This document shows positions 39,901 to 56,069 of a stretch of 64,000 bases of DNA, in pieces. The notes beneath the pieces are model-generated. The model was not told where the DNA came from. It did no database searches and was given only the letters and a program-made list of their open reading frames with translations. How positions within the stretch are numbered: the first letter of the stretch is position 1; each line of letters opens with the position of its first letter. The position numbers and the translations under genes were made by a program. This DNA is from Polyangiales bacterium (GTDB lineage Bacteria; Myxococcota_A; Polyangia; Polyangiales; Ga0077539): NCBI GenBank assembly GCA_046351535.1, contig JAXLYG010000005.1, positions 229,334 through 293,333 of the forward strand. Reading direction: 5' to 3'.

Positions 39901-42900
39901 TCACTGGTGGATCATGTCCGAGAGGATCAGCGCCGCGGAGTTGTAGTTGGGCGTCCCCTGCGGCACGAGGCGGAGGTATTCGATGTAGAGCGCGCGGGCG
40001 GCGCCGGTGTTGTGGTTGTCGCGCTCGATGTCGGCGAGGGCGCGCGTGGCCTGCACGTACCACGACGGCACGGGGGTCACGCCCGCGCCGCGCGCGCGAG
40101 CCTCCTGGAACGCGCTCCGCGCCGCGCCGACCTCGCCCGCGTCGGAGAGGAGCCGACCGAGGTTGTAGTGCCAGTCGCCGTGGCGGTTGTCGTGGTCGAT
40201 GGCGAAGCGGTAGAGCCTGATCGACTCGGGCCTGCGCCCGAGGGCGTCGTCGATGTCGGCCCAGGTCGCGTAGGCGGCCCAGAAGCGCGGGTCGAGCTGC
40301 GTGGCGCGGTTGATGTCCGCGAGCGCGTTGGCCGCGTCGCCGCGGTACAGCCTGATCTCCGCGCGCACCCAGTATCCGCGGGGGAAGGCCGCGTCGAGCT
40401 CGATGGACTGCTCGGCGAGCTGGAGCGCGCGCTGCACGTCGCCGACCTTGCGGTGCGCCTCGGCGGCGTAGGCCTTGAAGTCCGCGCGCTGCGGGTTGAG
40501 CTCGATGGCGCGGTCGAGGTAGTGCGCGGCGTCGACGAAGTTGTCGGCGCCGAGGAGCGCGCGGCCCATGATGTACTGCGCGTCGGCGTTGGTGGGCTGG
40601 TCGACCACGACGGAGCGGAGCATCTGGTCGGCGTCGCCGTAGTTGCCGAGCGCGACGAGCGTGGCGGCCACGCGGTTGATGAGCTCGATGTTGGTCGGGT
40701 CGCGCGCGAGGGCCTCGCGGAACGTGCTGAGCGCCTGCGGGAGCTCGCCGCGCGCCTCGGCCAGGAGCCCGCGCGCCATCGCGAGGCCGGGGTAGTTGGG
40801 GTCGGCGTGCGTGACGAATTCGAACTCGGTCTGCGCGTCGTTGAGGCGCTGCATGCGGCGCAGCACGTCGCCGAGGGCGAAGTGCGAGCGGATGTCGCCG
40901 GGCTCGCGCTGCACGGCGATGCGGAGCTCGGCCTCGGCGCCGGCGAGGTCGCCGCGGGCGAGGCGTCCGTGGGCGAGGGCGCGGTGGATCGCGGCGTTCT
41001 CGGGGACGCGCGCGCGGGCCTCGAGGAGCACCTGGTCGGCCGCGTCGGGGCGCTGCACCACGAGGAGCAGCTCGCTCAGCGACACGTACGCGTCGAGGTT
41101 CTCGGGCTGGAGCCTGATGGCCTCGCGGAAGGCCTGCTGCGCGAGGGTGCGCTGGTCGGTGGTGGCCGCGAGGGCCTTGCCGAGCCAGTAGTGCAGGCGC
41201 CCGTCGTTGGGGTGCTCGTGCACGGCGGGCTCGATGATCGACTTGGCCTCGGTGGCCTGGTTGAGCGCGAGGCTCGACTGCGCGATGCCGATGACCGCGT
41301 CGAGGTTCGCGTGGTCGGCGCTGTACGCGTTGCGGAAGCGCGCATGGGCGTCGGCGAAGTTCCCCTGGCGGTAGAGGATGGCGCCGATGCCGACGAGGGC
41401 GGAGGCCGAGCGGGGGTCGAGCTCGAGGGCGCGTTGAAAGCGCGTCTGCGCGGCGCTCACGTGGTCGCGCATGAGCTCGATCTGCCCGGCCACGACGCAC
41501 GCCTCGGCGCGCTCGCTCACCGACGCGCCCGAGGGGTTGGCGCCCGCGCCTGCGTTCGCGGGGCGCGGCCGCGCGCCGGGCGCAGGGCGGCCGTCGCTCA
41601 CGCGGTCACGCAGCAGCTCGAGGGCCCTGTCTCGCTCGGGTTCGAAGCGCGCGAGGAGCTTCGCCAGGAGGATGCGCGCGCCCGCGTGGCGGGTCTCCGC
41701 GCGGAGCACCTCCTCGGCCTCGCGGCGCGCCGTCTCGTGGTCGCCGCGGGCCTGCGACGCGAGCGCGAGGAAGTACCGCGAGCGCGGCGACGGGTGGCGC
41801 TGCCGCCCCTGCTGCGCGAAGCGGAGCCACTGCTCCTGATCGTTGAGCCGCTCGGCGGCGAGCGTGGCGAGGTCGCGGCCCGCGGGGTCGAGCTTGGCGA
41901 GGCGGAGGGCCTCGCGCGCGTTGCCGCGCACGAGCGCGTCGGAGGCCTTCGCGAGGTTGAGGTAGCGCATGCCGGGCGGCGCCTCGGCGAGCTGCGTGAG
42001 CACCTGGCGCGCGCGTCCGATGCGCGACGGGTCGGGGCCGAAGCGCGCGGCGACGAAGTTGTTCGCGTACACGATGTACGCTTGAAGCTCCTTCACCTGC
42101 GGGACGCGCGAGAGGGCGTCGTCGAGGCGGTTGAGCGACCGCATCGCGCGCTCGTACGTGTCGTGCTCGAGCGACCGGTCGACCTGCTGCACCACGCGGT
42201 TCGCGTCGGCGAGGCGCTCGTCTCCGTGCAGCTCCTCGTCGATCCAGTTCTTGCCGAAGGCGCCGTAGGGCGTGAGCGCGAGGGCGGCGCCGCCGAGGAT
42301 CGTGACCGCCGCGAAGCCGAGGGCTCCGTACGCGAGGTAGATCGCCTTGAACGGGAGCTTGAACGCCGGGCCCTTGCTCTCGGTCTTCTTCGTGCCGAAG
42401 CGCGCGCCCTTCTCGGGCTTGTCCGAGGCCTTCTCGGGCGCCTTCGTGGGAGGCTCGAACTCGCCCTGCGGCGGGGGCAGCAGCGAGTCGGGCATCGGCG
42501 GCGCGCGCAGCAGATCGTCGCTGAGCGGCGCGGGCTGCATCGAGTTCGACGACTGCGGGAAGACGCTCTGCATCGTCGGGTCGAAGGGGTTCTCGAGCGG
42601 CGGCAGCGACGGGTCGTGGAGCGCGGCGGGGCCCTCGCTCGGGTGCACGAAGCCGAAGGAGGGCGGGTCGGCCTCGTCGTCCATGGGGCCGAGGTCGAGC
42701 TCGCCGAAGCCCGCGCCGTGCGTGGGCGGCGGCGGCGGCGCGGGCGCCGCGTCGAGCGCGGGGAACTCGGGCGTCACGGGGAACTGCGAGACGGGCAGCG
42801 CGCGCGGCGCGGGCTCGGGGTTCGCAGCGGCCGCAGCGGCCTTTCGCGCGATCACGTTGTCGGGGTCGAGCTCGCTGCGCCGCGCGGACTTGGGGCTGCG

Positions 42901-44088
42901 CGCGCTCGCGGGGAGCGCCACGCCGCCCGACAGCACCGGGAGGTCGTCGGCGTTGGCCGAGACGGTGAAAGCCTTTCGTTCGAGGCCGATGCGGCCGAGG
43001 CGCGCGCCGCGCTCGGTGGTCATCGTGGGCGAGGTCACCACGGGCGGGAGCGGGTCGGGCTCCACCGCAGGGAGCGCCGCGCCGAAGTTCGAGAGGTCGA
43101 ACGCGGCGGGGAGCGCCTCGGTGCTCGAAGGGAGATCGACGGGGTCGGGGAGTCCGACGCTGAGCACGTCGGGCAGCGCGGCCGAGGGCGAGGGGAGCGC
43201 CGCCGAAGGCACGGGCAGCCCCGCCGCGGGCGCAGGGAGCCCCGCTGCGGGCGAGGGGAGCCCCGCGGCGAGCGAGGGGAGCCCCGCGGCGAGCGAGGGG
43301 AGCCCTGCGGCGAGCGAGGGGAGGCCCGCGGTGACAGCCGACGGGAGGTTCTTCGACGACGGGATCGGGAGGTCGTCGTCGGGGCCGAGGGGGAGGTCGG
43401 CCTCGTCGATGTCGAAGTCGTCGGGAGGCAGCGTCGCGGGCTGCGAAGACGCCAGCGCGGGCGCGGGCTGCGCGGCCTTCGAACCGTACTCGGGCGTCGG
43501 GATCTTCTTGCGCGCGAAGCTCTCGATGATGGGCTCCGCGCTCGCGAGGGCGTGCGCGGGGGCGCCGGGGATCCCTGCGGACGAGGGGAAGGAGCGGCGC
43601 GCGGAGGGGTCGACGGAGCCGCTGAAATCGATCACGGCGGGCAGCTCCGCGCGCTCGACGGAGGTCGGCAGGTCGAGGGCGAAGTCGCGCGTCGCGGGGA
43701 GCGCCGCGGGCTCGGCGACGCTCGGCAGATCGAGCGAGAAATCGCGCGTCGCGGGCAGGTCGACGAGGTCCTTGGGCATCGGGAGCGACGCGTAGGGGTC
43801 GAGCGGCAGCGGGAGGTCCGCGCCCGAGCCGAGGAGCGTCGCGGGCCCCGTGGCCTCACCCGCCTTCGAGAGCGAGATCGACGGCGGAGGCGCGCCCCTG
43901 GGGACTCCCGCGGCCGGGGCGGCCTTCGCGGCCGGAGGCGGCGGCGGAGGCGCGACGGCGCCCGCTGGACGCTTCACCAGGAACGACGTGTTGCACTTGG
44001 GGCAACGCATCTGCATCCCGCTGCGGGGGACGCGGCGCTCGTCGACCTCAAAGGGGCTCTGACACTCCTGGCAGCGAACCTCGAACAT
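39901..44088 (-). CDS. large multidomain protein: N-terminal MJ0042-type zinc ribbon, Pro/Ala-rich repeat region, single TM segment, C-terminal extended TPR-repeat domain
   Basis: N-terminus MFEVRCQECQSPFEVDERRVPRSGMQMRCPKCNTSFLVK carries the paired C-x2-C zinc-ribbon pattern. It is followed by a low-complexity LP(S/A)xAAG heptad array, then a TM helix (AIYLAYGALGFAAVTILGGAALAL). The last roughly 800 aa are TPR-like Ala/Leu/Tyr-rich repeats. Confidence 0.75.
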   Translation of the reverse strand: MFEVRCQECQSPFEVDERRVPRSGMQMRCPKCNTSFLVKRPAGAVAPPPPPPAAKAAPAAGVPRGAPPPSISLSKAGEATGPATLLGSGADLPLPLDPYASLPMPKDLVDLPATRDFSLDLPSVAEPAALPATRDFALDLPTSVERAELPAVIDFSGSVDPSARRSFPSSAGIPGAPAHALASAEPIIESFARKKIPTPEYGSKAAQPAPALASSQPATLPPDDFDIDEADLPLGPDDDLPIPSSKNLPSAVTAGLPSLAAGLPSLAAGLPSLAAGLPSPAAGLPAPAAGLPVPSAALPSPSAALPDVLSVGLPDPVDLPSSTEALPAAFDLSNFGAALPAVEPDPLPPVVTSPTMTTERGARLGRIGLERKAFTVSANADDLPVLSGGVALPASARSPKSARRSELDPDNVIARKAAAAAANPEPAPRALPVSQFPVTPEFPALDAAPAPPPPPTHGAGFGELDLGPMDDEADPPSFGFVHPSEGPAALHDPSLPPLENPFDPTMQSVFPQSSNSMQPAPLSDDLLRAPPMPDSLLPPPQGEFEPPTKAPEKASDKPEKGARFGTKKTESKGPAFKLPFKAIYLAYGALGFAAVTILGGAALALTPYGAFGKNWIDEELHGDERLADANRVVQQVDRSLEHDTYERAMRSLNRLDDALSRVPQVKELQAYIVYANNFVAARFGPDPSRIGRARQVLTQLAEAPPGMRYLNLAKASDALVRGNAREALRLAKLDPAGRDLATLAAERLNDQEQWLRFAQQGRQRHPSPRSRYFLALASQARGDHETARREAEEVLRAETRHAGARILLAKLLARFEPERDRALELLRDRVSDGRPAPGARPRPANAGAGANPSGASVSERAEACVVAGQIELMRDHVSAAQTRFQRALELDPRSASALVGIGAILYRQGNFADAHARFRNAYSADHANLDAVIGIAQSSLALNQATEAKSIIEPAVHEHPNDGRLHYWLGKALAATTDQRTLAQQAFREAIRLQPENLDAYVSLSELLLVVQRPDAADQVLLEARARVPENAAIHRALAHGRLARGDLAGAEAELRIAVQREPGDIRSHFALGDVLRRMQRLNDAQTEFEFVTHADPNYPGLAMARGLLAEARGELPQALSTFREALARDPTNIELINRVAATLVALGNYGDADQMLRSVVVDQPTNADAQYIMGRALLGADNFVDAAHYLDRAIELNPQRADFKAYAAEAHRKVGDVQRALQLAEQSIELDAAFPRGYWVRAEIRLYRGDAANALADINRATQLDPRFWAAYATWADIDDALGRRPESIRLYRFAIDHDNRHGDWHYNLGRLLSDAGEVGAARSAFQEARARGAGVTPVPSWYVQATRALADIERDNHNTGAARALYIEYLRLVPQGTPNYNSAALILSDMIHQ
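43186..43332. repeat. about 7 tandem copies of a 21-bp unit (GAGCGAGGGGAGCCCCGCGGC and variants) inside the ZnR-TPR gene, encoding heptapeptide repeats (AAGLPSL)n
   Basis: Direct tandem repeats read in sequence. The last four units are nearly identical. Confidence 0.6.
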
Positions 44089-44186
44089 CCTCTGACTCCA
44101 TGGCGGCCCTCGGGACGAGTGTGCCGCGGTCGACGATGCTCTCTCGTCACGGCTCGCTTGTGAAGCGCCGTTCGATGATTGCGCTC

Positions 44187-45137
44187 TCAGCGGCAGACGC
44201 GATTACGTCCACCCTGCTTCGCGCGGTAGAGGGCCTCGTCGGCCCGTTGAAAGAGCGCCTCGGCGTCGCCCGCGTCGGCGGGGAACGAGGCCACCCCGAT
44301 GGAGATCCCGGGTTTGAGCTCGACGCCCTCGCGCTCGTAGTGGTGGCTGTTGACCGCCGCGCGGATCTCTTCGGCCACGGTCGCGGCGCCGTCGGTGTTG
44401 GTGAGGGGCAGGGCCGCGCAGAACTCGTCGCCGCCGAAGCGCGAGCCGATCCCGCGCTCGCCGACCACGCGGCCGATGAGCCTGCCCGTCTCGCCGATGG
44501 TGTACGCGCCGAAGAGGTGCCCGTGGCGGTCGTTGATGGCCTTGATGCCGTCCATGTCCATCACGAGGAGGGCCACGGGGCGCCCCGAGGCGCGCGCGGC
44601 CTCGACGAGGAGGCCGAGCTCCTGGTCGAAGCGCCGACGGACGAAGAGCCCCGAGAGGTCGTCGATGTTCAGGAGCCGCTGGAGCTGCTCGTCGTAGTCC
44701 TGCTCGATGCGGTCCATGAGTTCGAAGCGCAGCACGGTGCGCCCGAGCACGACCTTGTCGCCGTGGGCGAGGGGCGCCTCGGTGCACTTGACGCCGTTGA
44801 CGGTCATGCCGTTGGTGCTCCCGAGGTCGACGATGCTCCACGCGTCGCCGCGGTCCTCGATGCGCGCGTGGCGCCAGGAGATCCCCGCGTCGGAGAGCAC
44901 GAGCTCGTTGGTCGGGTCGCGGCCGAGGGTGGCGTTGCCGGCGAGGCGCTTTCGCGTGCCCACCTCGTTGCCCGACATCACCACCACGGCGGGGCGTCGC
45001 GCGTCTTTGAGGGCCGTGCTGAGCTCCTCACGGATGCGTCCGTCGTCGAGGGGGAGCGTGCGCAGCGACTCGGGCGCTCCGGCGCGAGCGGGCTGCGCGC
45101 CGGGTGTCTTTCGGGGACCAGCGGGTTCGTCAGGCAT
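44187..45137 (-). CDS. FHA domain-containing diguanylate cyclase (FHA-GGDEF)
   Basis: FHA domain signatures (ATLGRDPTNELVLSDAGISWRHARI… GSTNGMTVNGV). GGDEF domain with an intact RFGGDEF active site and RxxD-like I-site context. The start is taken at MPDEPAG; the ORF is open to 45221. Confidence 0.8.
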   Translation of the reverse strand: MPDEPAGPRKTPGAQPARAGAPESLRTLPLDDGRIREELSTALKDARRPAVVVMSGNEVGTRKRLAGNATLGRDPTNELVLSDAGISWRHARIEDRGDAWSIVDLGSTNGMTVNGVKCTEAPLAHGDKVVLGRTVLRFELMDRIEQDYDEQLQRLLNIDDLSGLFVRRRFDQELGLLVEAARASGRPVALLVMDMDGIKAINDRHGHLFGAYTIGETGRLIGRVVGERGIGSRFGGDEFCAALPLTNTDGAATVAEEIRAAVNSHHYEREGVELKPGISIGVASFPADAGDAEALFQRADEALYRAKQGGRNRVCR

Positions 45138-45226
45138 TGCGGCGCCCGGGAGACTACACCGCCCCGCGCGGCTGCGACACGCGTTCCGTCGCCTCGCGCG
45201 GGTGATAGCCTCCGCGCCCACCGAAC

Positions 45227-46858: not shown

Positions 46859-48391
46859 CTACGGTCGCCGGGCGGGCGCGCGCGAGGCCGAGAGCGTCAT
46901 GGCCGTGAGCGTCGCGGCGGCGATGGCGCCGTACGCGACGGCGCCCGCGATGAAGGTCGCGCGCACGTCGCCGACGTCGCCCGCGCCGCGCGTTCCGATG
47001 AACGTGTCGGCCGCGGCGAGGGCCGCCCACGTGGGCGAGATCGCGAGCACGATCGAGGGGTGACGGATGCCGTTGCCGTGGCCGCCGAACCCGACCAGGA
47101 GCGCGATGAGCCACGCGCCCACGAAGGTCACGAAGAGCGCCACCGCGCCGGCCACGCGCGCCGTGGAGGGCCCCGCCGCGCCGCGCAGCGAGACGAGGCC
47201 CATGAAGCCTCCGAGCGCGGCGACGTAGAGGGCGGCCCAGAGGCCCGCGAGGAGCATCTCGGGGTCCGTTCCCACGAGCGCGAGGGGCGCGCAGAGGCAG
47301 CTCAGCCCGCCGAGCATCACGACGAACCACACCGAGGCCACGCGCGACGGAGGCATGAGCGCGCGCGCGACGGGCCCCGGCTGCTCGCGGGTCATGCGCC
47401 GCGAGACCTCGACGGGCGCGCCCACGAAGGCGAAGAGCATCGCCGTCGAGGCGAGGGCCGAGAGCGTCACGAAGAAGAGGCACCAGCCGCCGCGGTCGCT
47501 CGCGCTCGACGAGGTCCAGCGCGTCGCCACCACGAGGAGGGCGAGCGTGAGGGGCGACGCGAAGACGCCCCAGCGCTTGAGCGGGAGCGTGCGGTCCTGC
47601 GTGGGCTCCATGAGCCCGCCGTGCGCGACGGCGTAGAAGAGCCACGAGGGCGCGACCACGAACCACAGCGGGACGAGCACGAGCCACAGCGCGTAGAGCC
47701 GGTCGAAGGGCAGCGCGAAGTACGCGTCGGCGAAGAAGAACGGGCCCTCGAAGCTCAGCGCGTGGTGCCGCGCGAAGTCGTGCCCCACGGCCGAGAGCAT
47801 CCCCCCGAGGAACATCGCGCCGAGCACCGAGAGCGGCACCGTGGCGCCGACGGCCTTGCGCGTCGCGTCGGTGGTCGACGACACCGCCACGCCGAAGGTC
47901 ACGCCCACGGCGCCGAAGGCCAGCACGTAGACCGTCGAGACGACGAGGTGGCCGAGCGTCACGCCGCCGAAGAGCGTCGCCACGCCGAGCATGGGCATCG
48001 ACGCGAGGGGGATGAACGCCATCGCGATGAAGACCGCCGCGAGCTTGCCCGCCACGACGCGCCGCGGACCGAGCGCCGAGAGGCTGAGCGCGTCGAAGGT
48101 GCGGCCCTCGCGCTCCTGCACGATCGTCGTGGCGCCGAAGGTCGGACCCACGAACGACATCACCAGGAAGGTGCCGCCGTAGAAGAGCTGAAAGAGGATC
48201 TTGCCCGCCTCCGACGAGTCGGAGCTGTCGGCGATGGTCACCGCGCTCGTCACCACCGTGATGCCCACGACGATGAGCGCCACCACCACGGAGCGGACGT
48301 AGAGCGGCGTGCGGAGCACCGCGAGGAGCTCCTTTCGCACGATGGGGTTGGGGTCGCGCCACCACCCGAAGAGGCGATCTCCGAGGCTCAT
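46859..48391 (-). CDS. ABC-2 type transporter permease, unusually long (about 510 aa, 12 or more TM helices)
   Basis: Highly hydrophobic polytopic protein immediately downstream of, and overlapping, the ABC ATPase gene. Start at MSLGDRLFGWW. Confidence 0.65.
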   Translation of the reverse strand: MSLGDRLFGWWRDPNPIVRKELLAVLRTPLYVRSVVVALIVVGITVVTSAVTIADSSDSSEAGKILFQLFYGGTFLVMSFVGPTFGATTIVQEREGRTFDALSLSALGPRRVVAGKLAAVFIAMAFIPLASMPMLGVATLFGGVTLGHLVVSTVYVLAFGAVGVTFGVAVSSTTDATRKAVGATVPLSVLGAMFLGGMLSAVGHDFARHHALSFEGPFFFADAYFALPFDRLYALWLVLVPLWFVVAPSWLFYAVAHGGLMEPTQDRTLPLKRWGVFASPLTLALLVVATRWTSSSASDRGGWCLFFVTLSALASTAMLFAFVGAPVEVSRRMTREQPGPVARALMPPSRVASVWFVVMLGGLSCLCAPLALVGTDPEMLLAGLWAALYVAALGGFMGLVSLRGAAGPSTARVAGAVALFVTFVGAWLIALLVGFGGHGNGIRHPSIVLAISPTWAALAAADTFIGTRGAGDVGDVRATFIAGAVAYGAIAAATLTAMTLSASRAPARRP

Positions 48392-49389
48392 CACGGCCCT
48401 CCCTGCGCGGCGCTTGCGGGCGCGTCCGGCGGGGCGCTCGGCGTCGCGGGGCGCGTGACGTCCATGAAGATCCGCTCGAGGTCTCTGCGCTCGGGCTCGA
48501 CGGCCACGAGGCACAATCCCTCGCTCCCGAGCGCCGCGACGATCTCCGAGAGGCGCCACTCGTCGCCCTCGAAGTGCACCTCGTAGCGACCGCCGCCGCT
48601 CGCGTCGAGGCCCGGCTCCTCGATGCGCTCGACGCCCTTCACGAAGCTGAAGCGCGCGGCGACCTCGCGCACGCGCTCGGCGTCACGCAGCACCGTGACC
48701 TTCACCCTGCGACCGGGGCGCAGCGCGGCCTGCACGTCCTCGATGGGCCCCGCCGTCGCGAGGCGGCCGCGCTCCAGGATGCCGATCCAGGTGCACATGT
48801 CCGCGAGCTCCGTGAGGATGTGCGACGAGAGGAAGATGGTCTTCCCCATGCGCCCGAGCTCCGCGAGGAGCATTCGAAGCTCGATGCGCGCGCGCGGATC
48901 GAGGTCGCTCGCGGGCTCATCGAGGATGAGCACCTGCGGGTCGTGGAGCAGCGTCCGCGCGAGGAGGAGGCGCTGCTTCTGCCCCTTCGAGAGCGCGGCC
49001 ACCTCGCGGTCTCGGAGGTGGCCCACCTCGGTGAGCTCGAGCACGTTGTCGACGGTGCGCGCGCGCTTCGACGGCGCGATGCCCATCGCGCTCGCGAAGA
49101 AGTCGAGGTACTCGCCCGCCGTGATGCGATCGTAGACGCCCGCGAGGTCGGGCATGTAGCCCATGATCCGCCGCACGCCCGCGGGGTCTTCGACCACGTC
49201 GATGCCGCCGACGAGGGCCGTCCCGCTCGTCGGCGCCTGGAGCGTCGCGAGGATGCGGATGGTCGTCGTCTTGCCCGCGCCGTTGGGCCCGATGAAGCCA
49301 AAAACAGCGCCCTTCGGCACCTTGAAGGTCACGTCGTGGAGCACCACGTGGTCTCCGAACGCGTGCGTGAGCTGCCTGCACTCGATCAC
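48391..49389 (-). CDS. ABC transporter ATP-binding protein
   Basis: Walker A GPNGAGKTT, signature LSKGQKQRL, Walker B LILDEPASDLD and an H-loop. GTG start at 49389. The ORF track fuses it with the upstream gene. Confidence 0.85.
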   Translation of the reverse strand: MIECRQLTHAFGDHVVLHDVTFKVPKGAVFGFIGPNGAGKTTTIRILATLQAPTSGTALVGGIDVVEDPAGVRRIMGYMPDLAGVYDRITAGEYLDFFASAMGIAPSKRARTVDNVLELTEVGHLRDREVAALSKGQKQRLLLARTLLHDPQVLILDEPASDLDPRARIELRMLLAELGRMGKTIFLSSHILTELADMCTWIGILERGRLATAGPIEDVQAALRPGRRVKVTVLRDAERVREVAARFSFVKGVERIEEPGLDASGGGRYEVHFEGDEWRLSEIVAALGSEGLCLVAVEPERRDLERIFMDVTRPATPSAPPDAPASAAQGGP

Positions 49390-51335
49390 GGCGCGCCTCC
49401 CTCTCCAGCGTCGTTCGCGCTCGCCGCGTCGTCGGGCGTCGACGCCGTGGCGACCTCCGCCGCGGGCTCGTCGGGCTCGTAGTCGCTCCGTCGCGTGTTG
49501 AGCCGCGCGCTGTAGGCCCCCACGCGGTCGGGGTCGGGCACCTCGTCGGGGATCACCACGCGCACCACCGCGGCGGTCTCTGTGGGAGAGAAGCCCAGCG
49601 CGCGCGTCCAGCCCTTCGTCTCGTCGGTGATCCGCGCGAGCGCGAAGAGCTGGAGCGCGCCGCGCGCCCGCGTCGCGGGGCCCATCATCCGGTTGATGAA
49701 CACCCGGTCGAGGGTGCCCGTCGCGCGCGGGAACATCCCTTCGTAGGTGGCCTGCGCGAAGGGGGGATCGATGCGTCCGACGACGGTGGCGCCGGGCGCC
49801 GCGGCGCCGGGGCGCGACACCACCGCGCCGTCGCTGAGGAGCGCGATGTCGGTGAGCGTCCACGGCGAGTCGTTGATGACGCGCAGCGTGCGGCCGTCGC
49901 GCGCGATGCGGATCCCGCGGCCCGCGTCGACGACGCGCTCGGAGTACGCGAGGCCCGTCTCCCAGAGCCCGAGGCGCACGCGCTCGACGGAGAGCGTGCG
50001 GCCGTCCCAGCGCATCGCGGCCGAGGTGTTGTTCGTCCCCGTGGCGTAGAGCGCGAGGCCCTCGCTCGGCGGGGTCACCGAGAGGGTGCGCGCGACGCCG
50101 GCGTTGAGCCCCGCGAACACGCGCTCGACGGCCTCGTTCGAGCCCGCGCCGAGGTCGTACACGGCCAGCACCCGCGCCGTGCTCGCGCTCGTGCGCGTGA
50201 GACGCGCCGCCGCCACGATGATCGCCAGCACCGCGAAGGCCGCGAGCGGCAGGCGCACGAAGACCTTGAGCGGCGCGCGGCTCTTGCGGTTGCGCGCGAG
50301 CGCGACGCCCACCGCGACGATGTACAGCGTGAGGAGCAGCGTCACCGGGATGAGCAGCCCGCGCACGTCGGCCTTCGGTCGGAACGCGCGCGTGACGTCG
50401 TCGTCGCCCGAGCGCGCGAAGCGGCGGAAGAGCGAGAGCTCGCCGGGCGCGATCATCCCGCCGCCCGCGCCGTCGGCGAAGTCGGTGAAGTCTCGCAGCG
50501 CGGCGTCGGCGCGCGTGTCGTGGGCCCACCCCTCGGCCGAGAGGTCGTAGGGGATCACGCCCGCCACGCCGAGGCCCACGTGCACGACGGCGCCCCATCG
50601 ACGCGGCAGGAGCCGCGGGCCCGAGACGCGCCCGTCGCCGTCGTCGGTCACCGCGCCCAGGAGCCCGGTGAACCACGGGTCGCGCAGGTCCGCCGTCGTG
50701 CGGGGCGCCACGGCGAGAAAGCCGCCCGCGTTGACCCACTGCCGCAGCGTTCGCTTCGCCTCGGGGGGCAGCGCGAGGATGGCCCCGGAGCCCGCCACGA
50801 TCGCGTGCGCGCCGCTGAACGCGCTGGCAAACGGCGGCAGGAGCGCGTCGCCGCTCGTGGGGTCCGTGAGCATCGTCGCGGCGAGGATGCGGGCCTGCGA
50901 CGCCTCCGAAGGGTTGATCGATTGGATCGCGGCGGTGACCCGTCCGCCCAGGCCGAGCACGCCGATGAAGGTCGGCGCGACCGCGCTCGAGCCGCTGCCG
51001 GCGAACGAGATCGAGCTCCGCGCGCCGAGGTCTTCGAGGGCGACGTCGCCGTTGTCGTAGGGCCCCACGGGCGCGGGCACGACGAAGCTCCGCGTCGACC
51101 CCGCGGCGAGGCTCACGGGCTGCCGCACGCGCGCCTCGCCGTAGGGCCACGACGTGCGGATCGTCGTCGTGAGGTCTCCCCGCACGCTCGTGTGCGGCCG
51201 CGCGGTCACCACGACGCTCTGCACCGCGTCGGGGCGCGACGGGTACGCGAAGAGCCCCCTCGCCTCGAGCTCCTGCGCGCTGGCGGGCGCGCACCCCGCG
51301 AGCGCCGCGAGGGCCGTGAGAACCCGCGCCCTCAT
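49386..51335 (-). CDS. large lipobox-bearing hypothetical membrane protein downstream of MoxR
   Basis: Signal peptide with Cys (MRARVLTALAALAGCAPASAQ). Two central TM helices (LLIPVTLLLTLYIVAVGVALA; VRLPLAAFAVLAIIVAAA). The start overlaps the moxR stop and the stop overlaps the ABC ATPase start. Confidence 0.5.
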   Translation of the reverse strand: MRARVLTALAALAGCAPASAQELEARGLFAYPSRPDAVQSVVVTARPHTSVRGDLTTTIRTSWPYGEARVRQPVSLAAGSTRSFVVPAPVGPYDNGDVALEDLGARSSISFAGSGSSAVAPTFIGVLGLGGRVTAAIQSINPSEASQARILAATMLTDPTSGDALLPPFASAFSGAHAIVAGSGAILALPPEAKRTLRQWVNAGGFLAVAPRTTADLRDPWFTGLLGAVTDDGDGRVSGPRLLPRRWGAVVHVGLGVAGVIPYDLSAEGWAHDTRADAALRDFTDFADGAGGGMIAPGELSLFRRFARSGDDDVTRAFRPKADVRGLLIPVTLLLTLYIVAVGVALARNRKSRAPLKVFVRLPLAAFAVLAIIVAAARLTRTSASTARVLAVYDLGAGSNEAVERVFAGLNAGVARTLSVTPPSEGLALYATGTNNTSAAMRWDGRTLSVERVRLGLWETGLAYSERVVDAGRGIRIARDGRTLRVINDSPWTLTDIALLSDGAVVSRPGAAAPGATVVGRIDPPFAQATYEGMFPRATGTLDRVFINRMMGPATRARGALQLFALARITDETKGWTRALGFSPTETAAVVRVVIPDEVPDPDRVGAYSARLNTRRSDYEPDEPAAEVATASTPDDAASANDAGEGGAP

Positions 51336-52324
51336 CGCGCGACCTCGGGCACCGACGCGATCACCTCGTCGACGATGGCGTCGGCCGTGGCGCCGTCGGT
51401 CTCTCCCTCGAACGAGAGGATGAGCCTGTGCCGCAGCGCCGGGAGCGTCACCCGCCGCAGGTCTTCGAAGGACACCTGCGCGCGCCCCGCGAGGAGCGCC
51501 GCGGCCTTGCTCGCGAGCACGAGGCTCTGCCCGCCGCGCACGCCGGGACCGAAGCGCAGCTGCCGCTTCGCGCGCTCGTGACATTGACTGTCACTCGGGT
51601 CGAGGGCCCTGAGGGCGCGCGCGACCCAGTCGACCAGGGGCGACGCGATGACCACGTCGCGGCAGAGCGCTCTCGCGGAGATCAGCTCCGCGGCGCTCAT
51701 CACGGGGGCGGGCATCGCGCGCTCGGAGCCCGTGGTGCGCGTGAGGATCTCGACCATCGTGGCGGTGTCGGGCCGCGGAACGACGGTCTTGAGCAGAAAG
51801 CGATCGAGCTGCGCCTCGGGGAGCGGATAGGTCCCCTCCATCTCGATGGGGTTCTCGGTGGCGATGACGGTGAAGGGCTCGTCGAGCGCGTGGCGCGCGC
51901 CCGCGAGGGTCACCTGGTGCTCCTGCATCGCCTCGAGGAGCGCGCTCTGCGTTCGAGGCGTCGCGCGGTTGATCTCGTCGGCGAGGACGAGCTGCGCGAA
52001 CACCGGGCCGCGCACGAGTTCGAAGCGCCGTCGGCCGTGCTCGTCTTCGGAGACGACCTGCGTGCCCGTGACGTCGGCGGGCATGAGGTCGGGCGTGAAC
52101 TGGATTCGCGCGAAGCGCAGCGAGAGGGCCGCCGAGAGGGCCTTCACGAGCAGCGTCTTGCCGAGCCCGGGGACGCCTTCGAGCAGGCAGTGTCCGCCCG
52201 CGAGCATGCAGAGCAGCACCTCGTCGACGACGGCGCGCTGCCCGACGATCACCTCTCCGACGGCCGCGCGCACTCGCGCGATCGCGGCGCCCACCTCATC
52301 GATCGCGTCGCTCATCAGCGACAC
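51332..52324 (-). CDS. MoxR-like AAA+ ATPase
   Basis: Walker A GVPGLGKT, Walker B and sensor regions, and the characteristic MoxR N-terminal helix (VIVGQRAVVDEVLLCMLAGGHCLLEGVPGLGKTLL). Confidence 0.85.
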   Translation of the reverse strand: MSLMSDAIDEVGAAIARVRAAVGEVIVGQRAVVDEVLLCMLAGGHCLLEGVPGLGKTLLVKALSAALSLRFARIQFTPDLMPADVTGTQVVSEDEHGRRRFELVRGPVFAQLVLADEINRATPRTQSALLEAMQEHQVTLAGARHALDEPFTVIATENPIEMEGTYPLPEAQLDRFLLKTVVPRPDTATMVEILTRTTGSERAMPAPVMSAAELISARALCRDVVIASPLVDWVARALRALDPSDSQCHERAKRQLRFGPGVRGGQSLVLASKAAALLAGRAQVSFEDLRRVTLPALRHRLILSFEGETDGATADAIVDEVIASVPEVAR

Positions 52325-52388
52325 AGGGAATCGCGCGTTTGCGCGCCGAGGTCAACGGCCGTCGGCGCGAGCGGTCGAAGGCGACGGG

Positions 52389-53339
52389 TCAGTGGCCCGC
52401 GTGCGGATCGGGCGCGGCGCCCGCGGCGGCGGGCGCGGGGGGAGAGGGCGTGCGGCTCACGGTGATGCGCTGCTCGGCGGGGTTGAGGTGCCCGGGGGCG
52501 CGCTCGCCGTTGGCGCCGAGGAGGTCGAGCGCGATGGTGTGCTCTCCGTCCGGGAGGTTCTCGATGTAGTAGGGGACCCACGACGGGAGCTCGGGCATGG
52601 CCGTCCCGTCGATGGTGGGGCGCACGCGGAAGCCCGTCGCGCTGATCTGCGCCGCGGGCACGTTGGCGAGGTAGAAATCGAGCAGGATGCGGTTGGCGCC
52701 CGCGCCCTCGATGCGGCCCTTGGGGCGCGAGTAGGTGAGCATCGGGGCCCGGGGGTTGAAGTGCAGGTCCCGCGAGGCCGCGCCGACGTGAAAGACCACC
52801 ATGGCGTAGGCGCCGTCGGTCTTCACGGTCTCGTGCGTCTCCCACCCGGGGAAGGCGCGGAGCACATGGGTGCCCTGCGCGAGGTGCTCGAGCGCGACGG
52901 GCCGCGACGGGTCATCGATGCGCTGGTAGGGCTGATCGTCGAGCACGAGGTGGATGTGGCGCATGTCCTGGGCGTTGGCGGTGTCGCGCCAGCCCGTGAC
53001 GTTGAGCCTCACCTCGACGCGATCCTCGCGGATCGTGGCGTTGTTGGCGGGCGCCGTGATGCGCACGCGCGGCGAGGGCGAGGGCACCTCTCGGCGCTCT
53101 CCGGCCACGATGGCGACGGGCGGCAGCGGCGCCGGAGCGACGGCCGTCGCGGCGTCTGCGGGCGCGGCGCTCGACGCGTCGGGGTCGTTCGAAAGCATCG
53201 AGACGCCCGCGTCGACCGCGCCGCCGGAGCTCGCGGCGGTGTTCGGCGTCGCGGTGTTGTTCGATGTCGAGGCGCTGCACCCGACCCACGCGGCGAGGGC
53301 CGCGGCGGGCACGAGGATCCATGCCGAGCGAGTGGACAT
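52389..53339 (-). CDS. hypothetical lipoprotein (first gene of the MoxR/ABC string)
   Basis: Lipoprotein signal (LAAWVGCSAST), a Ser/Ala/Pro-rich linker and then a beta-rich domain. No family recognised. Confidence 0.5.
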   Translation of the reverse strand: MSTRSAWILVPAAALAAWVGCSASTSNNTATPNTAASSGGAVDAGVSMLSNDPDASSAAPADAATAVAPAPLPPVAIVAGERREVPSPSPRVRITAPANNATIREDRVEVRLNVTGWRDTANAQDMRHIHLVLDDQPYQRIDDPSRPVALEHLAQGTHVLRAFPGWETHETVKTDGAYAMVVFHVGAASRDLHFNPRAPMLTYSRPKGRIEGAGANRILLDFYLANVPAAQISATGFRVRPTIDGTAMPELPSWVPYYIENLPDGEHTIALDLLGANGERAPGHLNPAEQRITVSRTPSPPAPAAAGAAPDPHAGH

Positions 53340-53475: not shown

Positions 53476-54954
53476 TCAGCCCTCGCCCTCGGGGGGCGGG
53501 TCTTCGATCCCGCCGATGTGCGCGTCGGCGTAGCCGTGGTCGTCGTGGGCGAGGTTCTCGAACTTGGTGAGCTCGCGGATGAAGCGCAGGCGGATGGTGT
53601 CCGTGGGGCCGTTTCGCTGCTTGGCGATGATGATCTCCGCGATGCCCTTGTCCTCGGTGTCGCGGTTGTAGACCTCGTCGCGGTAGATGAACATGACGAC
53701 GTCGGCGTCCTGCTCGATGGCGCCCGACTCGCGGAGGTCGGCGAGCATGGGGCGCTTGTCCTTGCCGGGCCGGGTCTCGCAGCCGCGGTTGAGCTGCGAG
53801 AGCGCGATGATCGGGACGTCGAGCTCCTTGGCGAGGCCCTTGAGCCCGCGCGAGATCTCGGAGATCTCTCGCTCGCGCGAGTCCATGCGCTCGCGGCTGG
53901 CCTTCATGAGCTGGAGGTAGTCGATGATGATGAGCGACATGTCGCGCTCGCTCTTGATGCGCCGCGCCTTGGCGCGCAGCTCGAGGAGCGTCAGGTCGCC
54001 CGAGTCGTCGATGTAGATGGGCAGCGAGTGGAGCTTGTTGGCCGAGGCCGTGAGCGCGGTGACGTCGTCCTGCGTGAGGAGGTTCGAGCGCAGTCGCGAC
54101 TGGTCGATGCGCGCGTCGGCGCACATGAGGCGGTTGGCGAGCTCGATGCGCGGCATCTCGAGCGAGAAGAGCAGCACGGGCTTCTTCGACGTCTCCGCCG
54201 CGGCGCTCGTGATGTTCAAGACGAAGCTCGTCTTCCCCATGGCGGGGCGGGCCGCGATGATGATGAGCTGGCCGCCGTGCATGCCCGAGGTGAGCGTGTC
54301 GAGGTCGCGGAAGCCCGTCTCCGTGCCCGAGATGCGCGCCCCTCGCACGAGGGTGTTCTCGATGCGTTCGAAGGCCTCGAGGATCACCTGCTCCAGCGGG
54401 ACGAGCGTGCTCTTCGAACGCTTCTGCGCGACCTCGAAGACCTTCGCCGCCGCGGAGTCGAGGAACTCGTCGGCCGTGCCGTGATCGCCGTAGCCGCGCG
54501 CGACGATCTCGTGCGCGACCTCGATCATCTTCCGCACGCCAGCCTGGTCGGCCACGATGCGCGCGTGCGACTCGATGTGGGCGATCGTCGGGATCGTGTC
54601 GGTCAGCTCGCCGAGGTACTGCGCGCCGCCGACCGTGTTGAGGCGCTCGCGGGCCCGGAGCTCCGCGGCGAGCGTGACGATGTCGACGGGCTCCCTGCGC
54701 GCCGAGATCGCTTGAATGGCCTCGTAGATGACGCCGTGCGCGGGGTGATAGAAGTCCGCCGCGGTGACCGTCGACTCGACGGTGGCCATCGCGGAGTTGT
54801 CGAGCAGGATGCCGCCGAGCACCGCGCGCTCGGCGTCGAGGTCGTGGGGGGGCACGCGCCCGTGCGCGGAGGCCGCGGCGGAGAGCTGTGCTGCCGCGTG
54901 GACGAGGGCGTCCTTGGCGTTCTTGTCGCGGCGGTCTCGGTCAGCGTAGGCCAT
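53476..54954 (-). CDS. dnaB: replicative DNA helicase DnaB
   Basis: Walker A ARPAMGKTSF, LIIIDYLQLM, and the RecA-like and N-terminal DnaB domains. Start at MAYADRD; the ORF track over-extends to 55521. Confidence 0.9.
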   Translation of the reverse strand: MAYADRDRRDKNAKDALVHAAAQLSAAASAHGRVPPHDLDAERAVLGGILLDNSAMATVESTVTAADFYHPAHGVIYEAIQAISARREPVDIVTLAAELRARERLNTVGGAQYLGELTDTIPTIAHIESHARIVADQAGVRKMIEVAHEIVARGYGDHGTADEFLDSAAAKVFEVAQKRSKSTLVPLEQVILEAFERIENTLVRGARISGTETGFRDLDTLTSGMHGGQLIIIAARPAMGKTSFVLNITSAAAETSKKPVLLFSLEMPRIELANRLMCADARIDQSRLRSNLLTQDDVTALTASANKLHSLPIYIDDSGDLTLLELRAKARRIKSERDMSLIIIDYLQLMKASRERMDSREREISEISRGLKGLAKELDVPIIALSQLNRGCETRPGKDKRPMLADLRESGAIEQDADVVMFIYRDEVYNRDTEDKGIAEIIIAKQRNGPTDTIRLRFIRELTKFENLAHDDHGYADAHIGGIEDPPPEGEG

Positions 54955-55103: not shown

Positions 55104-56069
55104 TCAGGCGGTGTGGGCGCCGTTCACGGGGGCGCTCACGGCTTCGACCGCGCTCGCGCTCTTGACGGCCTCGTGGAGCATGCGCTCGATGGGGCTGCGC
55201 GCGCGGGCGACGTCGCCCTCGATCGCGAGGCCACCACACGCGGCGACCTTCTCGGCCACCGAGGGAGAGCCGGGGCCGCCGACGAACCAGGGGATCCCGC
55301 CGCACGCCTTCGCGTACGCCTCGACGAGGGGCGCGGACGCGACCGGGTCGAGGGTGCGCGAGAGCGAGAGCCCGACGCCCGTGGGGCGCAGCCGTCGCAC
55401 CGCGTCGGCCACCGCGTCGGGCGGCGTGCGCACGCCGAGGGTGATCGTGGCGATGCCCCACGACGCGAGGCGAAGGGCCACGCCGTAGATGGGCAGGAGG
55501 TGGTCCTCTTCGGCGAAGCACCCGAGGAGCACCGTGCGGGTGGCGTCGTCGGGATTGGTGAGCCTGACCATGGCCCGCACCGAGTCGCCGATGCAGCTCG
55601 ACGCGAGGTGCTCCTGCGCGACGGAGAGCTCTCCGTCGTGCCAGAGCTCGCCCACGCGGCGCAGCGCGGGCGAGAAGACCCGCTCGAACACCGCCGTCGA
55701 CGACCCGAGGTACTGCGCCCGGGCGACCTCGCGCTCGATGGACCTCGCGTCGAAGGCCATGATCGCGTCGATCAGCCGTTGAGAGGCCACGACGAAGGGG
55801 TCTCCGTCGGCCACCGAGAGCGTCGCCGCGCCGTCTTCGCTGGTCTTCACCACGCGGGCGGCCTCGGCGATCGACATGCCGTTCGAGCAGAGGTCGCGCA
55901 GCTTGCGGACCATCGCCACGTCGCGGTCGCTGTAGAGCCGATAGGCCGACGCGGTGCGCGCGGGCGTCGGAATGCCGTAGCGCCGCTCCCAGGCCCTCAG
56001 CGTCGGAGAGGGGACCCCCGTCATCTCTGAGACCACCTGGATCCTGAATCTGCCGCTCACATCACTCAT
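55104..56069 (-). CDS. MerR family transcriptional regulator with C-terminal cobalamin (B12)-binding domain (CarH/LitR-like light-responsive regulator)
   Basis: MerR HTH (FRIQVVSEMTGVPSPTLRAWERRYGIP…). The C-terminal Rossmann-like B12-binding module includes an E/D-x-H motif (FAEEDHLLPIYG). Confidence 0.65.
   Translation of the reverse strand: MSDVSGRFRIQVVSEMTGVPSPTLRAWERRYGIPTPARTASAYRLYSDRDVAMVRKLRDLCSNGMSIAEAARVVKTSEDGAATLSVADGDPFVVASQRLIDAIMAFDARSIEREVARAQYLGSSTAVFERVFSPALRRVGELWHDGELSVAQEHLASSCIGDSVRAMVRLTNPDDATRTVLLGCFAEEDHLLPIYGVALRLASWGIATITLGVRTPPDAVADAVRRLRPTGVGLSLSRTLDPVASAPLVEAYAKACGGIPWFVGGPGSPSVAEKVAACGGLAIEGDVARARSPIERMLHEAVKSASAVEAVSAPVNGAHTA

What the first reader, a model, noticed from the sequence alone, without database searches (positions are those of the whole stretch)
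46859..53339. Lipoprotein, MoxR AAA+ ATPase, lipobox-bearing membrane protein, ABC ATPase and oversized ABC-2 permease as one overlapping gene string
Five minus-strand genes with overlapping stop and start codons (moxR/membrane protein, membrane protein/ABC ATPase, ABC ATPase/permease). MoxR ATPases usually partner with VWA/DUF58 proteins. Here the partners are a 650-aa lipoprotein with two central TM helices and an ABC-2 exporter whose permease is about twice the normal length. The set resembles auxiliary-component ABC systems (GldA/F/G-like) fused to a MoxR chaperone module. I do not recognise it as a described system.
Basis: inference. Interest (0 to 1): 0.7.

Follow-up and report, generated by a model that had tools for sequence, protein, structure and literature searches.

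The report
MoxR-linked ABC-2 exporter cassette, Polyangiales
Four translationally coupled genes (a MoxR chaperone ATPase, a novel periplasmic scaffold protein, an ABC ATPase and a 12-helix ABC-2 permease) form a cassette conserved across Polyangia myxobacteria, and it is a trimmed form of a larger, undescribed operon that joins an ABC exporter to a Bat-like MoxR/DUF58/VWA module.

Summary
The genes are real and the three stop/start overlaps are as described. Four of the five genes form a conserved cassette: MoxR, a 649-aa membrane protein (B), an ABC ATPase and a 510-aa ABC-2 permease. It has the same order and strand in 69/70, 77/77 and 72/72 informative Polyangia loci, including Sorangium cellulosum So ce56, and in two loci of a second subclade, one probably planctomycete. 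The upstream lipoprotein is not a member. It follows dnaB across Polyangiales, with or without the cassette.

About half of the relatives continue with DUF58, BatA/VWA and VWA/GATase1_like genes. The "missing" VWA partners therefore belong to the fuller eight-gene operon and are absent from this locus.

The most likely function is an envelope ABC-2 exporter or mechanotransducer with a periplasmic scaffold, assembled or remodelled by MoxR. The substrate is unknown. I rate it a new variant of known kinds, of moderate interest.

The parts
51332..52324 (-). MoxR-type AAA+ ATPase (MRP-like). 330 aa from the GTG start, or 327 aa from the ATG at 52315.
   Evidence: Pfam AAA_3 E 7e-63 and AAA_lid_2 E 1e-15. 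Walker A GVPGLGKT, Walker B LADEINR and the QLDRF arginine are intact (sequence). 59% identical to the MoxR of the eight-gene operon in L014. Lies directly upstream of B in 69/70 Polyangia loci and 5/6 window-clade loci.
49386..51335 (-). Protein B, 649 aa. Signal peptide; Ig-like beta-sandwich (about 22-110); ThuA/GATase1-like alpha/beta domain (about 122-290); TM hairpin (325-349 and 355-380) joined by a basic loop; C-terminal double beta-sandwich plus a small alpha/beta subdomain (386-596); acidic disordered tail.
48391..49389 (-). ABC ATPase of the DrrA/GldA-like (ABC-2 type) group, 332 aa, with a C-terminal extension of about 100 aa.
   Evidence: Pfam ABC_tran E 4e-28. NCBIfam drrA subfamily 222.5 bits (cut-off 312) and GldA 207.9 bits (cut-off 402.6). 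Walker A GPNGAGKTT, signature LSKGQKQR, Walker B VLILDEP and H-loop SSH are intact. GTGA overlap with B.
46859..48394 (-). ABC-2 family permease, 510-511 aa, about 12 TM segments. The N-terminal half is a recognisable ABC-2 domain. The C-terminal six-TM half is conserved within the family but matches no known model.
   Evidence: Pfam ABC2_membrane_3 41.7 bits (cut-off 31.6) and ABC2_membrane_2 36.7 bits (cut-off 27.2), both within residues 18-230 only. Hydropathy. The C-terminal half alone has no Pfam hit. hhalign of the N-half against the C-half gives probability 0.4%. Homologous over residues 13-435 to the 597-aa permease of L014. No PDB sequence relative.
52389..53339 (-). Neighbouring His-rich lipoprotein (Lp), 316 aa. 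Probably co-transcribed here, but not a conserved member of the cassette.
   Evidence: Lipobox Cys21 is conserved in at least 90% of 16 homologs. His128, His158 and His267 are invariant, with an RHIHLVLD motif and a DPHAGH tail. 91 homolog clusters. Follows dnaB in L094 and L095, where the cassette is not adjacent. 64-nt gap to moxR. Absent from all 80 main-clade loci.

Best explanation
The unit is a four-gene, translationally coupled cassette (moxR, B, ABC ATPase, 12-TM ABC-2 permease) of a Polyangiales (Myxococcota) genome.

Shown:
- The ATPase and permease are an ABC-2-type pair with intact catalytic motifs.
- B is a bitopic hairpin protein. Both of its large domains face the periplasm: Ig-like plus ThuA/GATase1-like on the N side, and a double beta-sandwich on the C side. 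It has no conserved catalytic triad.
- The four genes travel together across Polyangia and in a second, probably planctomycete, subclade.
- In about half of the relatives they lie between a conserved upstream gene ('U') and DUF58, BatA/VWA and VWA/GATase1_like genes. That makes an eight-gene Bat-like operon.

Inferred:
- The ATPase and permease form an inner-membrane exporter, or an ATP-driven mechanotransducer.
- B is its periplasmic accessory scaffold, playing the role GldG plays for GldA/GldF.
- The cytoplasmic MoxR hexamer assembles or remodels the membrane complex. In full-length operons it would do so through the DUF58/VWA adaptors.
- In this lineage, as in Sorangium, the DUF58/BatA/VWA genes are not at the locus. 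MoxR therefore acts either directly on cytoplasmic parts of the transporter or through adaptors encoded elsewhere.

The substrate is unknown. An envelope component (glycan, lipid or lipoprotein) is the most plausible class.
For: - Gene structure and overlaps.
- Domain assignments.
- B family size and coherence.
- B fold. Weak DUF4350 signal in 22 of 63 relatives.
- The Ig plus GATase1-like module of B aligns to a module of the operon's own VWA/GATase1_like protein (hhalign E 2.5e-4).
- Synteny: MoxR adjacent in 69/70, ABC in 77/77 and permease in 72/72 informative Polyangia loci. DUF58 follows in 34/63. BatA follows in 25/57 and the VWA/GATase1_like gene in 23/57 (L083 reassigned by eye because its hits overlap).
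- Window clade: MoxR 5/6, ABC 6/6, permease 5/5, DUF58 0/5.
- Second subclade with the full eight-gene order.
- Orthology of all four proteins to those of the eight-gene operon (59%, 27-35%, 50% and 29% identity).
- Taxon: the 92%-identity cluster includes a protein annotated as Polyangiales bacterium.
- Precedents in the literature: DUF4350/GldG-like extracytoplasmic proteins occur in operons with MoxR and vWA proteins in archaea (PMC5898192). GldF and GldG are needed for membrane localisation of GldA (PMC9127263).
Against: - No experiment bears on this family.
- Both large domains of B are periplasmic. Only a loop of about 5-12 residues faces the cytoplasm, where MoxR sits, so direct MoxR-B contact is unlikely.
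- The cassette can exist without an adjacent moxR (the L001-L003 lineage and L068). MoxR may therefore be dispensable or act in trans.
- Most of the conserved synteny lies within one class (Polyangia), where vertical inheritance inflates the counts. The second-phylum evidence is two loci, and the taxon of one is inferred only from neighbouring PSD/PSCyt domains.
Confidence: 0.6

Rival explanations
1. It is an ortholog of the Bacteroidota gliding-motility transporter GldA/GldF/GldG.
For: The ATPase matches the GldA model over its full length (207.9 bits) and has an LSKG-type signature like GldA. B has a GldG/GIFT-class fold.
Against: - The GldA score is about half the 402.6-bit cut-off, and the generic drrA subfamily scores higher.
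- B and the permease hit no GldG, GldF or ABC_transp_aux model at E<=0.1.
- B has a central TM hairpin and an extra C-terminal domain, unlike GldG.
- The permease is twice the length of GldF.
- From general knowledge, myxobacteria glide with Agl/Glt machinery, not T9SS/Gld.
Confidence: 0.04
2. The ABC pair is not a substrate exporter. It is a mechanotransducer that uses ATP hydrolysis to drive conformational work in B's periplasmic domains, in the manner of FtsEX, MacB or LolCDE.
For: - B has two large periplasmic domains that look non-catalytic, held by a TM hairpin next to the permease.
- The permease has an extra conserved six-TM domain of unknown role.
- Loss of functional GldA destabilises the envelope lipoproteins GldJ and GldK, rather than revealing a known transported substrate (PMC9127263).
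Against: Known mechanotransducers belong to the type VII (MacB/FtsX) fold, not to ABC-2. Nothing here distinguishes transport from mechanotransmission.
Confidence: 0.2
3. The ATPase and permease are an ordinary DrrAB-type drug or metabolite efflux pump. MoxR and B are merely neighbours.
For: The best NCBIfam hit is the drrA subfamily. Polyangia are rich in secondary metabolites (general knowledge).
Against: - The 4-nt overlaps and fixed gene order hold in more than 70 loci and in a second subclade.
- The drrA score is below its cut-off.
- No biosynthetic genes flank the cassette in this window or in the examined loci.
- The permease architecture (12 TM) is unlike DrrB.
Confidence: 0.08
4. It is a Bat (Bacteroides aerotolerance)-type system proper, or a MoxR-vWA conflict/defence system.
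For: Relatives carry DUF58, BatA and VWA genes directly downstream. The MoxR also passes the bpMoxR model cut-off (39.7 bits).
Against: - This locus and this 64-kb window contain no DUF58, BatA, VWA, TPR or BatD gene.
- AAA_3 scores far higher than bpMoxR (210.7 against 39.7 bits).
- There is no beta-propeller or effector gene.
- PADLOC gives only generic P-loop cross-hits.
- Canonical Bat operons have no ABC transporter and no B (PMC5700661).
Confidence: 0.08

Closest known systems
GldA/GldF/GldG ABC transporter of Flavobacterium johnsoniae (COG3225-type ABC-2 system with an auxiliary component)
   Same: An ABC-2-class ATPase and permease are paired with a large, membrane-anchored, periplasm-facing accessory protein. 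That protein has a GATase1/flavodoxin-like (GIFT/DUF4350-class) domain. The substrate is unknown in both cases.
   Different: - No protein reaches the Gld model cut-offs.
- B has a signal peptide plus a central TM hairpin and an extra C-terminal double beta-sandwich, instead of N- and C-terminal anchors.
- The permease is 12-TM (510 aa) against about 240 aa for GldF.
- A MoxR gene is translationally coupled upstream.
- The taxon is Myxococcota.
Bat-like MoxR-DUF58-BatA/VWA operons (Bacteroides batI, Borrelia bb0170-0176, Rhizobium RL3499-3502)
   Same: An MRP-type MoxR leads the operon. In about half of the relatives, DUF58, BatA-N/VWA and VWA/GATase1_like genes follow on the same strand. The products are predicted to be envelope-associated.
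   Different: - Canonical Bat operons have no ABC transporter and no B-family protein.
- In this family three genes (B, ATPase, permease) are inserted between moxR and DUF58.
- The locus studied here lacks every Bat component except MoxR.
Archaeal and actinobacterial DUF4350 (arCOG01314) - MoxR - vWA neighbourhoods, predicted to be a secretion or membrane-remodelling complex (Makarova et al. 2015, PMC5898192)
   Same: A membrane-anchored extracytoplasmic flavodoxin/GATase1-like protein related to GldG is encoded next to a MoxR ATPase and Ig-domain proteins.
   Different: - Those proteins match DUF4350 at threshold and have a single C-terminal TM.
- No ABC transporter is part of those neighbourhoods.
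- Here the vWA partner is absent from the locus and an ABC-2 pair is present.

Membership tests
MoxR AAA+ ATPases (MRP-like, Pfam AAA_3) | AAA_3 core plus AAA_lid_2, with intact Walker A, Walker B and arginine finger | tested here: met
   AAA_3 210.7 bits (cut-off 27) and AAA_lid_2 57.5 bits. Motifs read from the translation.
MoxR AAA+ ATPases (MRP-like, Pfam AAA_3) | Adjacent DUF58/VWA partner gene | tested here: not met
   No DUF58, BatA or VWA hit anywhere in the 64-kb window by tblastn at E<1e-5. It is present downstream in 34 of 63 related loci.
ABC-2 type exporter (ATPase plus ABC2_membrane permease) | ABC_tran ATPase with intact motifs, and a permease above an ABC2_membrane gathering score | tested here: met
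   ABC_tran 99.2 bits. ABC2_membrane_3 41.7 bits against a 31.6 cut-off and ABC2_membrane_2 36.7 bits against 27.2.
GldA/GldF/GldG gliding transporter | GldA equivalog score (TIGR03522) at or above 402.6 bits | tested here: not met
   207.9 bits.
GldA/GldF/GldG gliding transporter | Accessory protein matches GldG or ABC_transp_aux, and the permease matches GldF | tested here: not met
   B and the permease have 0 NCBIfam families at E<=0.1. There is no ABC_transp_aux hit in B or in 63 relatives.
DUF4350 (PF14258) / GATase1-like extracytoplasmic scaffold domains | Sequence match at the Pfam gathering score (30.4 bits) | tested here: not met
   The window protein has no hit. 22 of 63 relatives hit below threshold, best E 2.3e-4.
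DUF4350 (PF14258) / GATase1-like extracytoplasmic scaffold domains | Class-I GATase/ThuA-like alpha/beta fold without a catalytic triad | tested here: met
Bat (aerotolerance) operon | MoxR plus DUF58 plus BatA/BatB VWA membrane proteins (plus TPR/BatD/BatE) | tested here: not met
   Only MoxR is present at this locus. Relatives carry DUF58, BatA and VWA genes.
Bacterial lipoproteins (for protein B) | Conserved lipobox cysteine | tested here: not met
   The LAGC Cys is not conserved in the 10-sequence alignment: it is absent in P0005 and P0007-P0009, and W precedes the Cys in P0001-P0004 and P0006. The A-x-A-Q site is conserved instead.
Anti-phage defence systems (PADLOC) | A specific model hit on any of the five proteins | tested here: not met
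   Only generic P-loop cross-hits.

The most novel reading that the evidence does not exclude
The cassette is the minimal form of a previously undescribed envelope machine that spans at least two phyla. In it, a Bat-like MoxR/DUF58/VWA module is physically coupled to an ABC-2 transporter through a new family of periplasmic ThuA/DUF4350-like scaffold proteins. If that is right, the long-unexplained MRP-type MoxR/Bat systems would gain a concrete, testable client: assembly or gating of an ABC exporter complex. GldG-like and DUF4350-like proteins would be unified as the shared interface between MoxR systems and ABC-2 transporters.
Probability: 0.3. Interest if true: 0.6.

Novelty: new variant of a known kind. 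Interest (0 to 1): 0.42.

Why it matters
MRP-type MoxR ATPases and Bat-like operons are widespread, and they affect envelope integrity and stress tolerance. Their clients are still unknown. GldG-type accessory proteins of ABC-2 transporters are just as obscure.

This family places a MoxR, a GldG-like-fold scaffold and an ABC-2 transporter in one translationally coupled unit. In fuller versions it also places the DUF58/BatA/VWA set there. That gives a specific hypothesis: MoxR/VWA systems assemble or regulate an ABC exporter complex. The hypothesis can be tested in genetically tractable Sorangium or Polyangium strains that carry the same cassette.

The work also defines a protein family of about 300 representative clusters that has no Pfam or NCBIfam model.

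Tried and rejected
- Foldseek against afdb50 was not available.
It ran with the subclade alignment A4. As a result the 80 named loci sample only one subclade.
- Internal duplication of the long permease: hhalign of the N-half against the C-half on 77 sequences gave probability 0.4%, so I rejected it as undetectable.
- The C-terminal half of the permease against Pfam gave nothing. The permease and its profile against PDB sequences gave nothing.
- B as a fusion of a GldG-like and a DUF4340-like protein: no DUF4340 hit in 63 members, so this is unsupported.
- Lp related to the conserved upstream gene 'U' of the eight-gene operon: BLASTP found no similarity.
- Defence-system membership: PADLOC found nothing specific.
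- The first AF2 model of B, built from 10 sequences, was poor in the C-terminal half (pLDDT 56). It was superseded by the 147-sequence model.
- Foldseek against PDB gave only weak beta-sandwich matches.
- The sigma-70 promoter scan found nothing. It is uninformative at 73% GC.
- Literature searches for a description of the cassette found none.
Full report
**Observation.** The region has about 73% G+C. A third-position GC frame plot and translations show five consecutive minus-strand genes. An independent GC3-based gene call agrees. The genes are:
- a lipoprotein, Lp (52389-53339);
- MoxR (51332-52324, or to 52315 from the ATG that gives the 327 aa seen in homologs);
- a 649-aa protein, here called B (49386-51335);
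- an ABC ATPase (48391-49389);
- a long ABC-2 permease (46859-48394, or to 48391).

The junction sequences confirm three overlaps. MoxR/B overlap as ATGA and B/ABC as GTGA. ABC/permease overlap as GTGA, or as TGATG if the ATG start is used. Lp and moxR are separated by 64 nt, with no terminator-like site. Upstream lie dnaB (53476-54954) and a CarH-like MerR/B12 regulator. Downstream, convergent, are an NAD-binding protein gene and corA.

**Domain content.**
- MoxR matches Pfam AAA_3 (E 7e-63) and AAA_lid_2.
- The ATPase matches ABC_tran. It is nearest to the drrA subfamily (222.5 bits) and GldA (207.9 bits) models, but below both cut-offs (312 and 402.6 bits).
- The permease passes ABC2_membrane_3 and ABC2_membrane_2, but only over residues 18-230.
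- B and Lp match nothing at threshold.
- The catalytic motifs of both ATPases are intact.
- Hydropathy gives about 12 TM segments in the permease. In B it gives a signal sequence plus two central TM helices joined by a basic loop (ARNRKSRAPLK). Both large domains of B should therefore be periplasmic.
- The LAGC lipobox of B is not conserved in homologs, while an A-x-A-Q site is.

**What B is.** A word-indexed search found only nine relatives, at 92-34% identity. A full profile search found 293 representative clusters, 169 of them at E<=1e-10 and nearly all 630-790 aa. They share motifs such as WVxxGGxLAV and LWET.

Of 63 members, 22 give sub-threshold DUF4350 hits at the GG motif, and no other family recurs.

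With a 147-sequence alignment, AlphaFold2 gives pLDDT 90.6 and pTM 0.89. The model has five parts:
- an Ig-like sandwich (about 22-110);
- an alpha/beta domain (about 122-290);
- a TM hairpin;
- a beta-rich C-terminal region (386-596);
- a disordered acidic tail.

The invariant residues are glycines and one Asn, and there is no Cys/His/Glu triad. The domain therefore looks like a non-catalytic scaffold.

This is the fold class that Makarova et al. linked to GldG and DUF4350 in archaeal MoxR/vWA neighbourhoods (PMC5898192).

**Conservation.**
- In the window's own clade, MoxR-B-ABC-permease with 4-nt overlaps recurs down to 49% B identity (L004, L006-L009).
- In the most divergent member (34% identity; L001-L003), moxR is absent. 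Lp is separated from B by glyoxalase and AraC genes on the other strand.
- A genome scan with a distant subclade found 146 relatives. The 80 best are all Polyangia or unclassified Myxococcota MAGs. They include Sorangium cellulosum So ce56 and So0157-2, Polyangium fumosum, Chondromyces apiculatus, Minicystis rosea and Byssovorax.
- tblastn mapping of these loci shows MoxR directly upstream of B in 69/70, ABC in 77/77 and the permease in 72/72 informative loci.
- DUF58 follows the permease in 34/63 loci. BatA/VWA follows in 25/57 and a roughly 1000-aa VWA/GATase1_like protein in 23/57. A conserved gene with no Pfam match, 'U', precedes moxR in 43/64.
- Cultivated Sorangium, Polyangium, Chondromyces and Minicystis have the four-gene form, like this window.
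- Two loci of the second sequence subclade show the full order: U'-MoxR-B-ABC-permease-DUF58-BatA-VWA/GATase1_like. They are L096, whose neighbours carry planctomycete PSD/PSCyt domains, and L097.
- All four window proteins are homologous to those of the eight-gene operon, at 59%, 27-35%, 50% and 29% identity.
- The window's closest B cluster contains a protein annotated as Polyangiales bacterium.

**Lp.** Lp has 91 homolog clusters, a conserved lipobox Cys, and invariant histidines with a C-terminal DPHAGH tail. It sits after dnaB in loci where the cassette is 9 kb away or absent. None of the 80 main-clade loci has it, and it is unrelated to 'U'. I treat it as a neighbour, not a component.

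**The permease.** Profile-profile comparison of its halves finds no duplication (probability 0.4%). The C-terminal half has no Pfam or PDB sequence relative, yet it is conserved across clades.

**Mechanism.**

Shown:
- an intact ABC-2 ATPase/permease pair;
- a periplasm-facing, non-catalytic scaffold protein of the GldG/DUF4350 fold class;
- a MoxR that is nearly always translationally coupled to them;
- frequent continuation of the operon into DUF58/BatA/VWA genes.

Inferred:
- B serves the transporter as GldG serves GldA/GldF. GldF and GldG are needed for GldA membrane localisation, and GldA function is needed for the stability of envelope lipoproteins (PMC9127263).
- MoxR, with DUF58/VWA adaptors where they are present, assembles or remodels the complex from the cytoplasmic side.
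- B exposes only a short loop to the cytoplasm. MoxR's direct target is therefore more likely the ATPase, the permease, or adaptors encoded elsewhere.
- A weak profile match (E 2.5e-4) links B's Ig plus GATase1-like module to a module of the operon's own VWA/GATase1_like protein. This fits a shared scaffold architecture.

Rivals:
- A mechanotransducer rather than an exporter. Not excluded.
- A GldAFG ortholog. Model cut-offs are not met.
- A DrrAB-type efflux pump with unrelated neighbours. The conserved coupling argues against it.
- A Bat or defence system proper. The components are absent here, and PADLOC is negative.

**Comparison with the known, and novelty.** The parts are known kinds: MRP-type MoxR, ABC-2 exporter, a GATase1/DUF4350-like scaffold and Bat-like VWA genes. 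Pairwise links are already in the literature: GldG with ABC-2, and DUF4350 with MoxR/vWA. I could not find any description of the combination in one operon. That combination has a new model-less scaffold family and a 12-TM permease. This locus is a reduced four-gene variant of it.

I therefore rate it a new variant of a known kind. Interest is moderate, because function is wholly inferred and the locus itself is the less informative, trimmed form.

Noticed in passing
window 52389-53339 (-): Lp is a conserved lipoprotein, probably built of two Ig-like modules. His128, His158 and His267 are invariant, with an RHIHLVLD motif, a GTHVLRAFPGWETHE motif and a C-terminal DPHAGH tail, which suggests a periplasmic metal-binding protein. 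It follows dnaB across Polyangiales.
   Followed up: partly
L006 1241-4231 versus window 53476-54954 (-): The DnaB ortholog in a related MAG carries an intein with a LAGLIDADG homing endonuclease (996 aa). The window's DnaB (about 492 aa) has no intein.
   Followed up: no
window 55104-56069 (-); L001 1845-5376: A CarH-like MerR/B12-binding regulator lies upstream of dnaB. In L001 it sits beside phytoene synthase and desaturase-type genes, the usual arrangement for light-induced carotenogenesis in myxobacteria.
   Followed up: no
L014 18108-21227 and orthologs in 23 other loci: The VWA/GATase1_like protein of about 1000 aa in the eight-gene operons contains, N-terminal to its VWA domain, an Ig plus GATase1-like module. 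That module aligns to B residues 40-209 (hhalign E 2.5e-4, probability 43%), so B may derive from, or share a module with, this Bat-like protein.
   Followed up: partly
L001 8509-9815: In the most divergent lineage of the window clade, moxR is replaced by glyoxalase and AraC-family genes on the opposite strand. B, the ABC ATPase and the permease remain intact and overlapping. A second locus (L068) also lacks an adjacent moxR.
   Followed up: partly
L014 6851-8866; L096 7145-8956: A conserved gene of 600-670 aa with no Pfam match ('U') precedes moxR in 43 of 64 informative Polyangia loci and in L096. In Sorangium a homolog lies about 5-6 kb downstream of the permease on the opposite strand. It is absent from the window.
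   Followed up: partly
window 21306-22493 (+): This ORF has an unusually high second-position GC (0.76, against about 0.45-0.6 for its neighbours). It may encode a low-complexity Ala/Gly/Pro-rich product, or it may be a miscalled frame.
   Followed up: no
window 39901-45221 (-): A 1395-aa zinc-ribbon/TPR protein and an FHA-GGDEF protein flank corA downstream of the cassette. The whole neighbourhood, from the CarH-like gene and dnaB to corA, FHA-GGDEF and the TPR gene, is syntenic in related MAGs.
   Followed up: no
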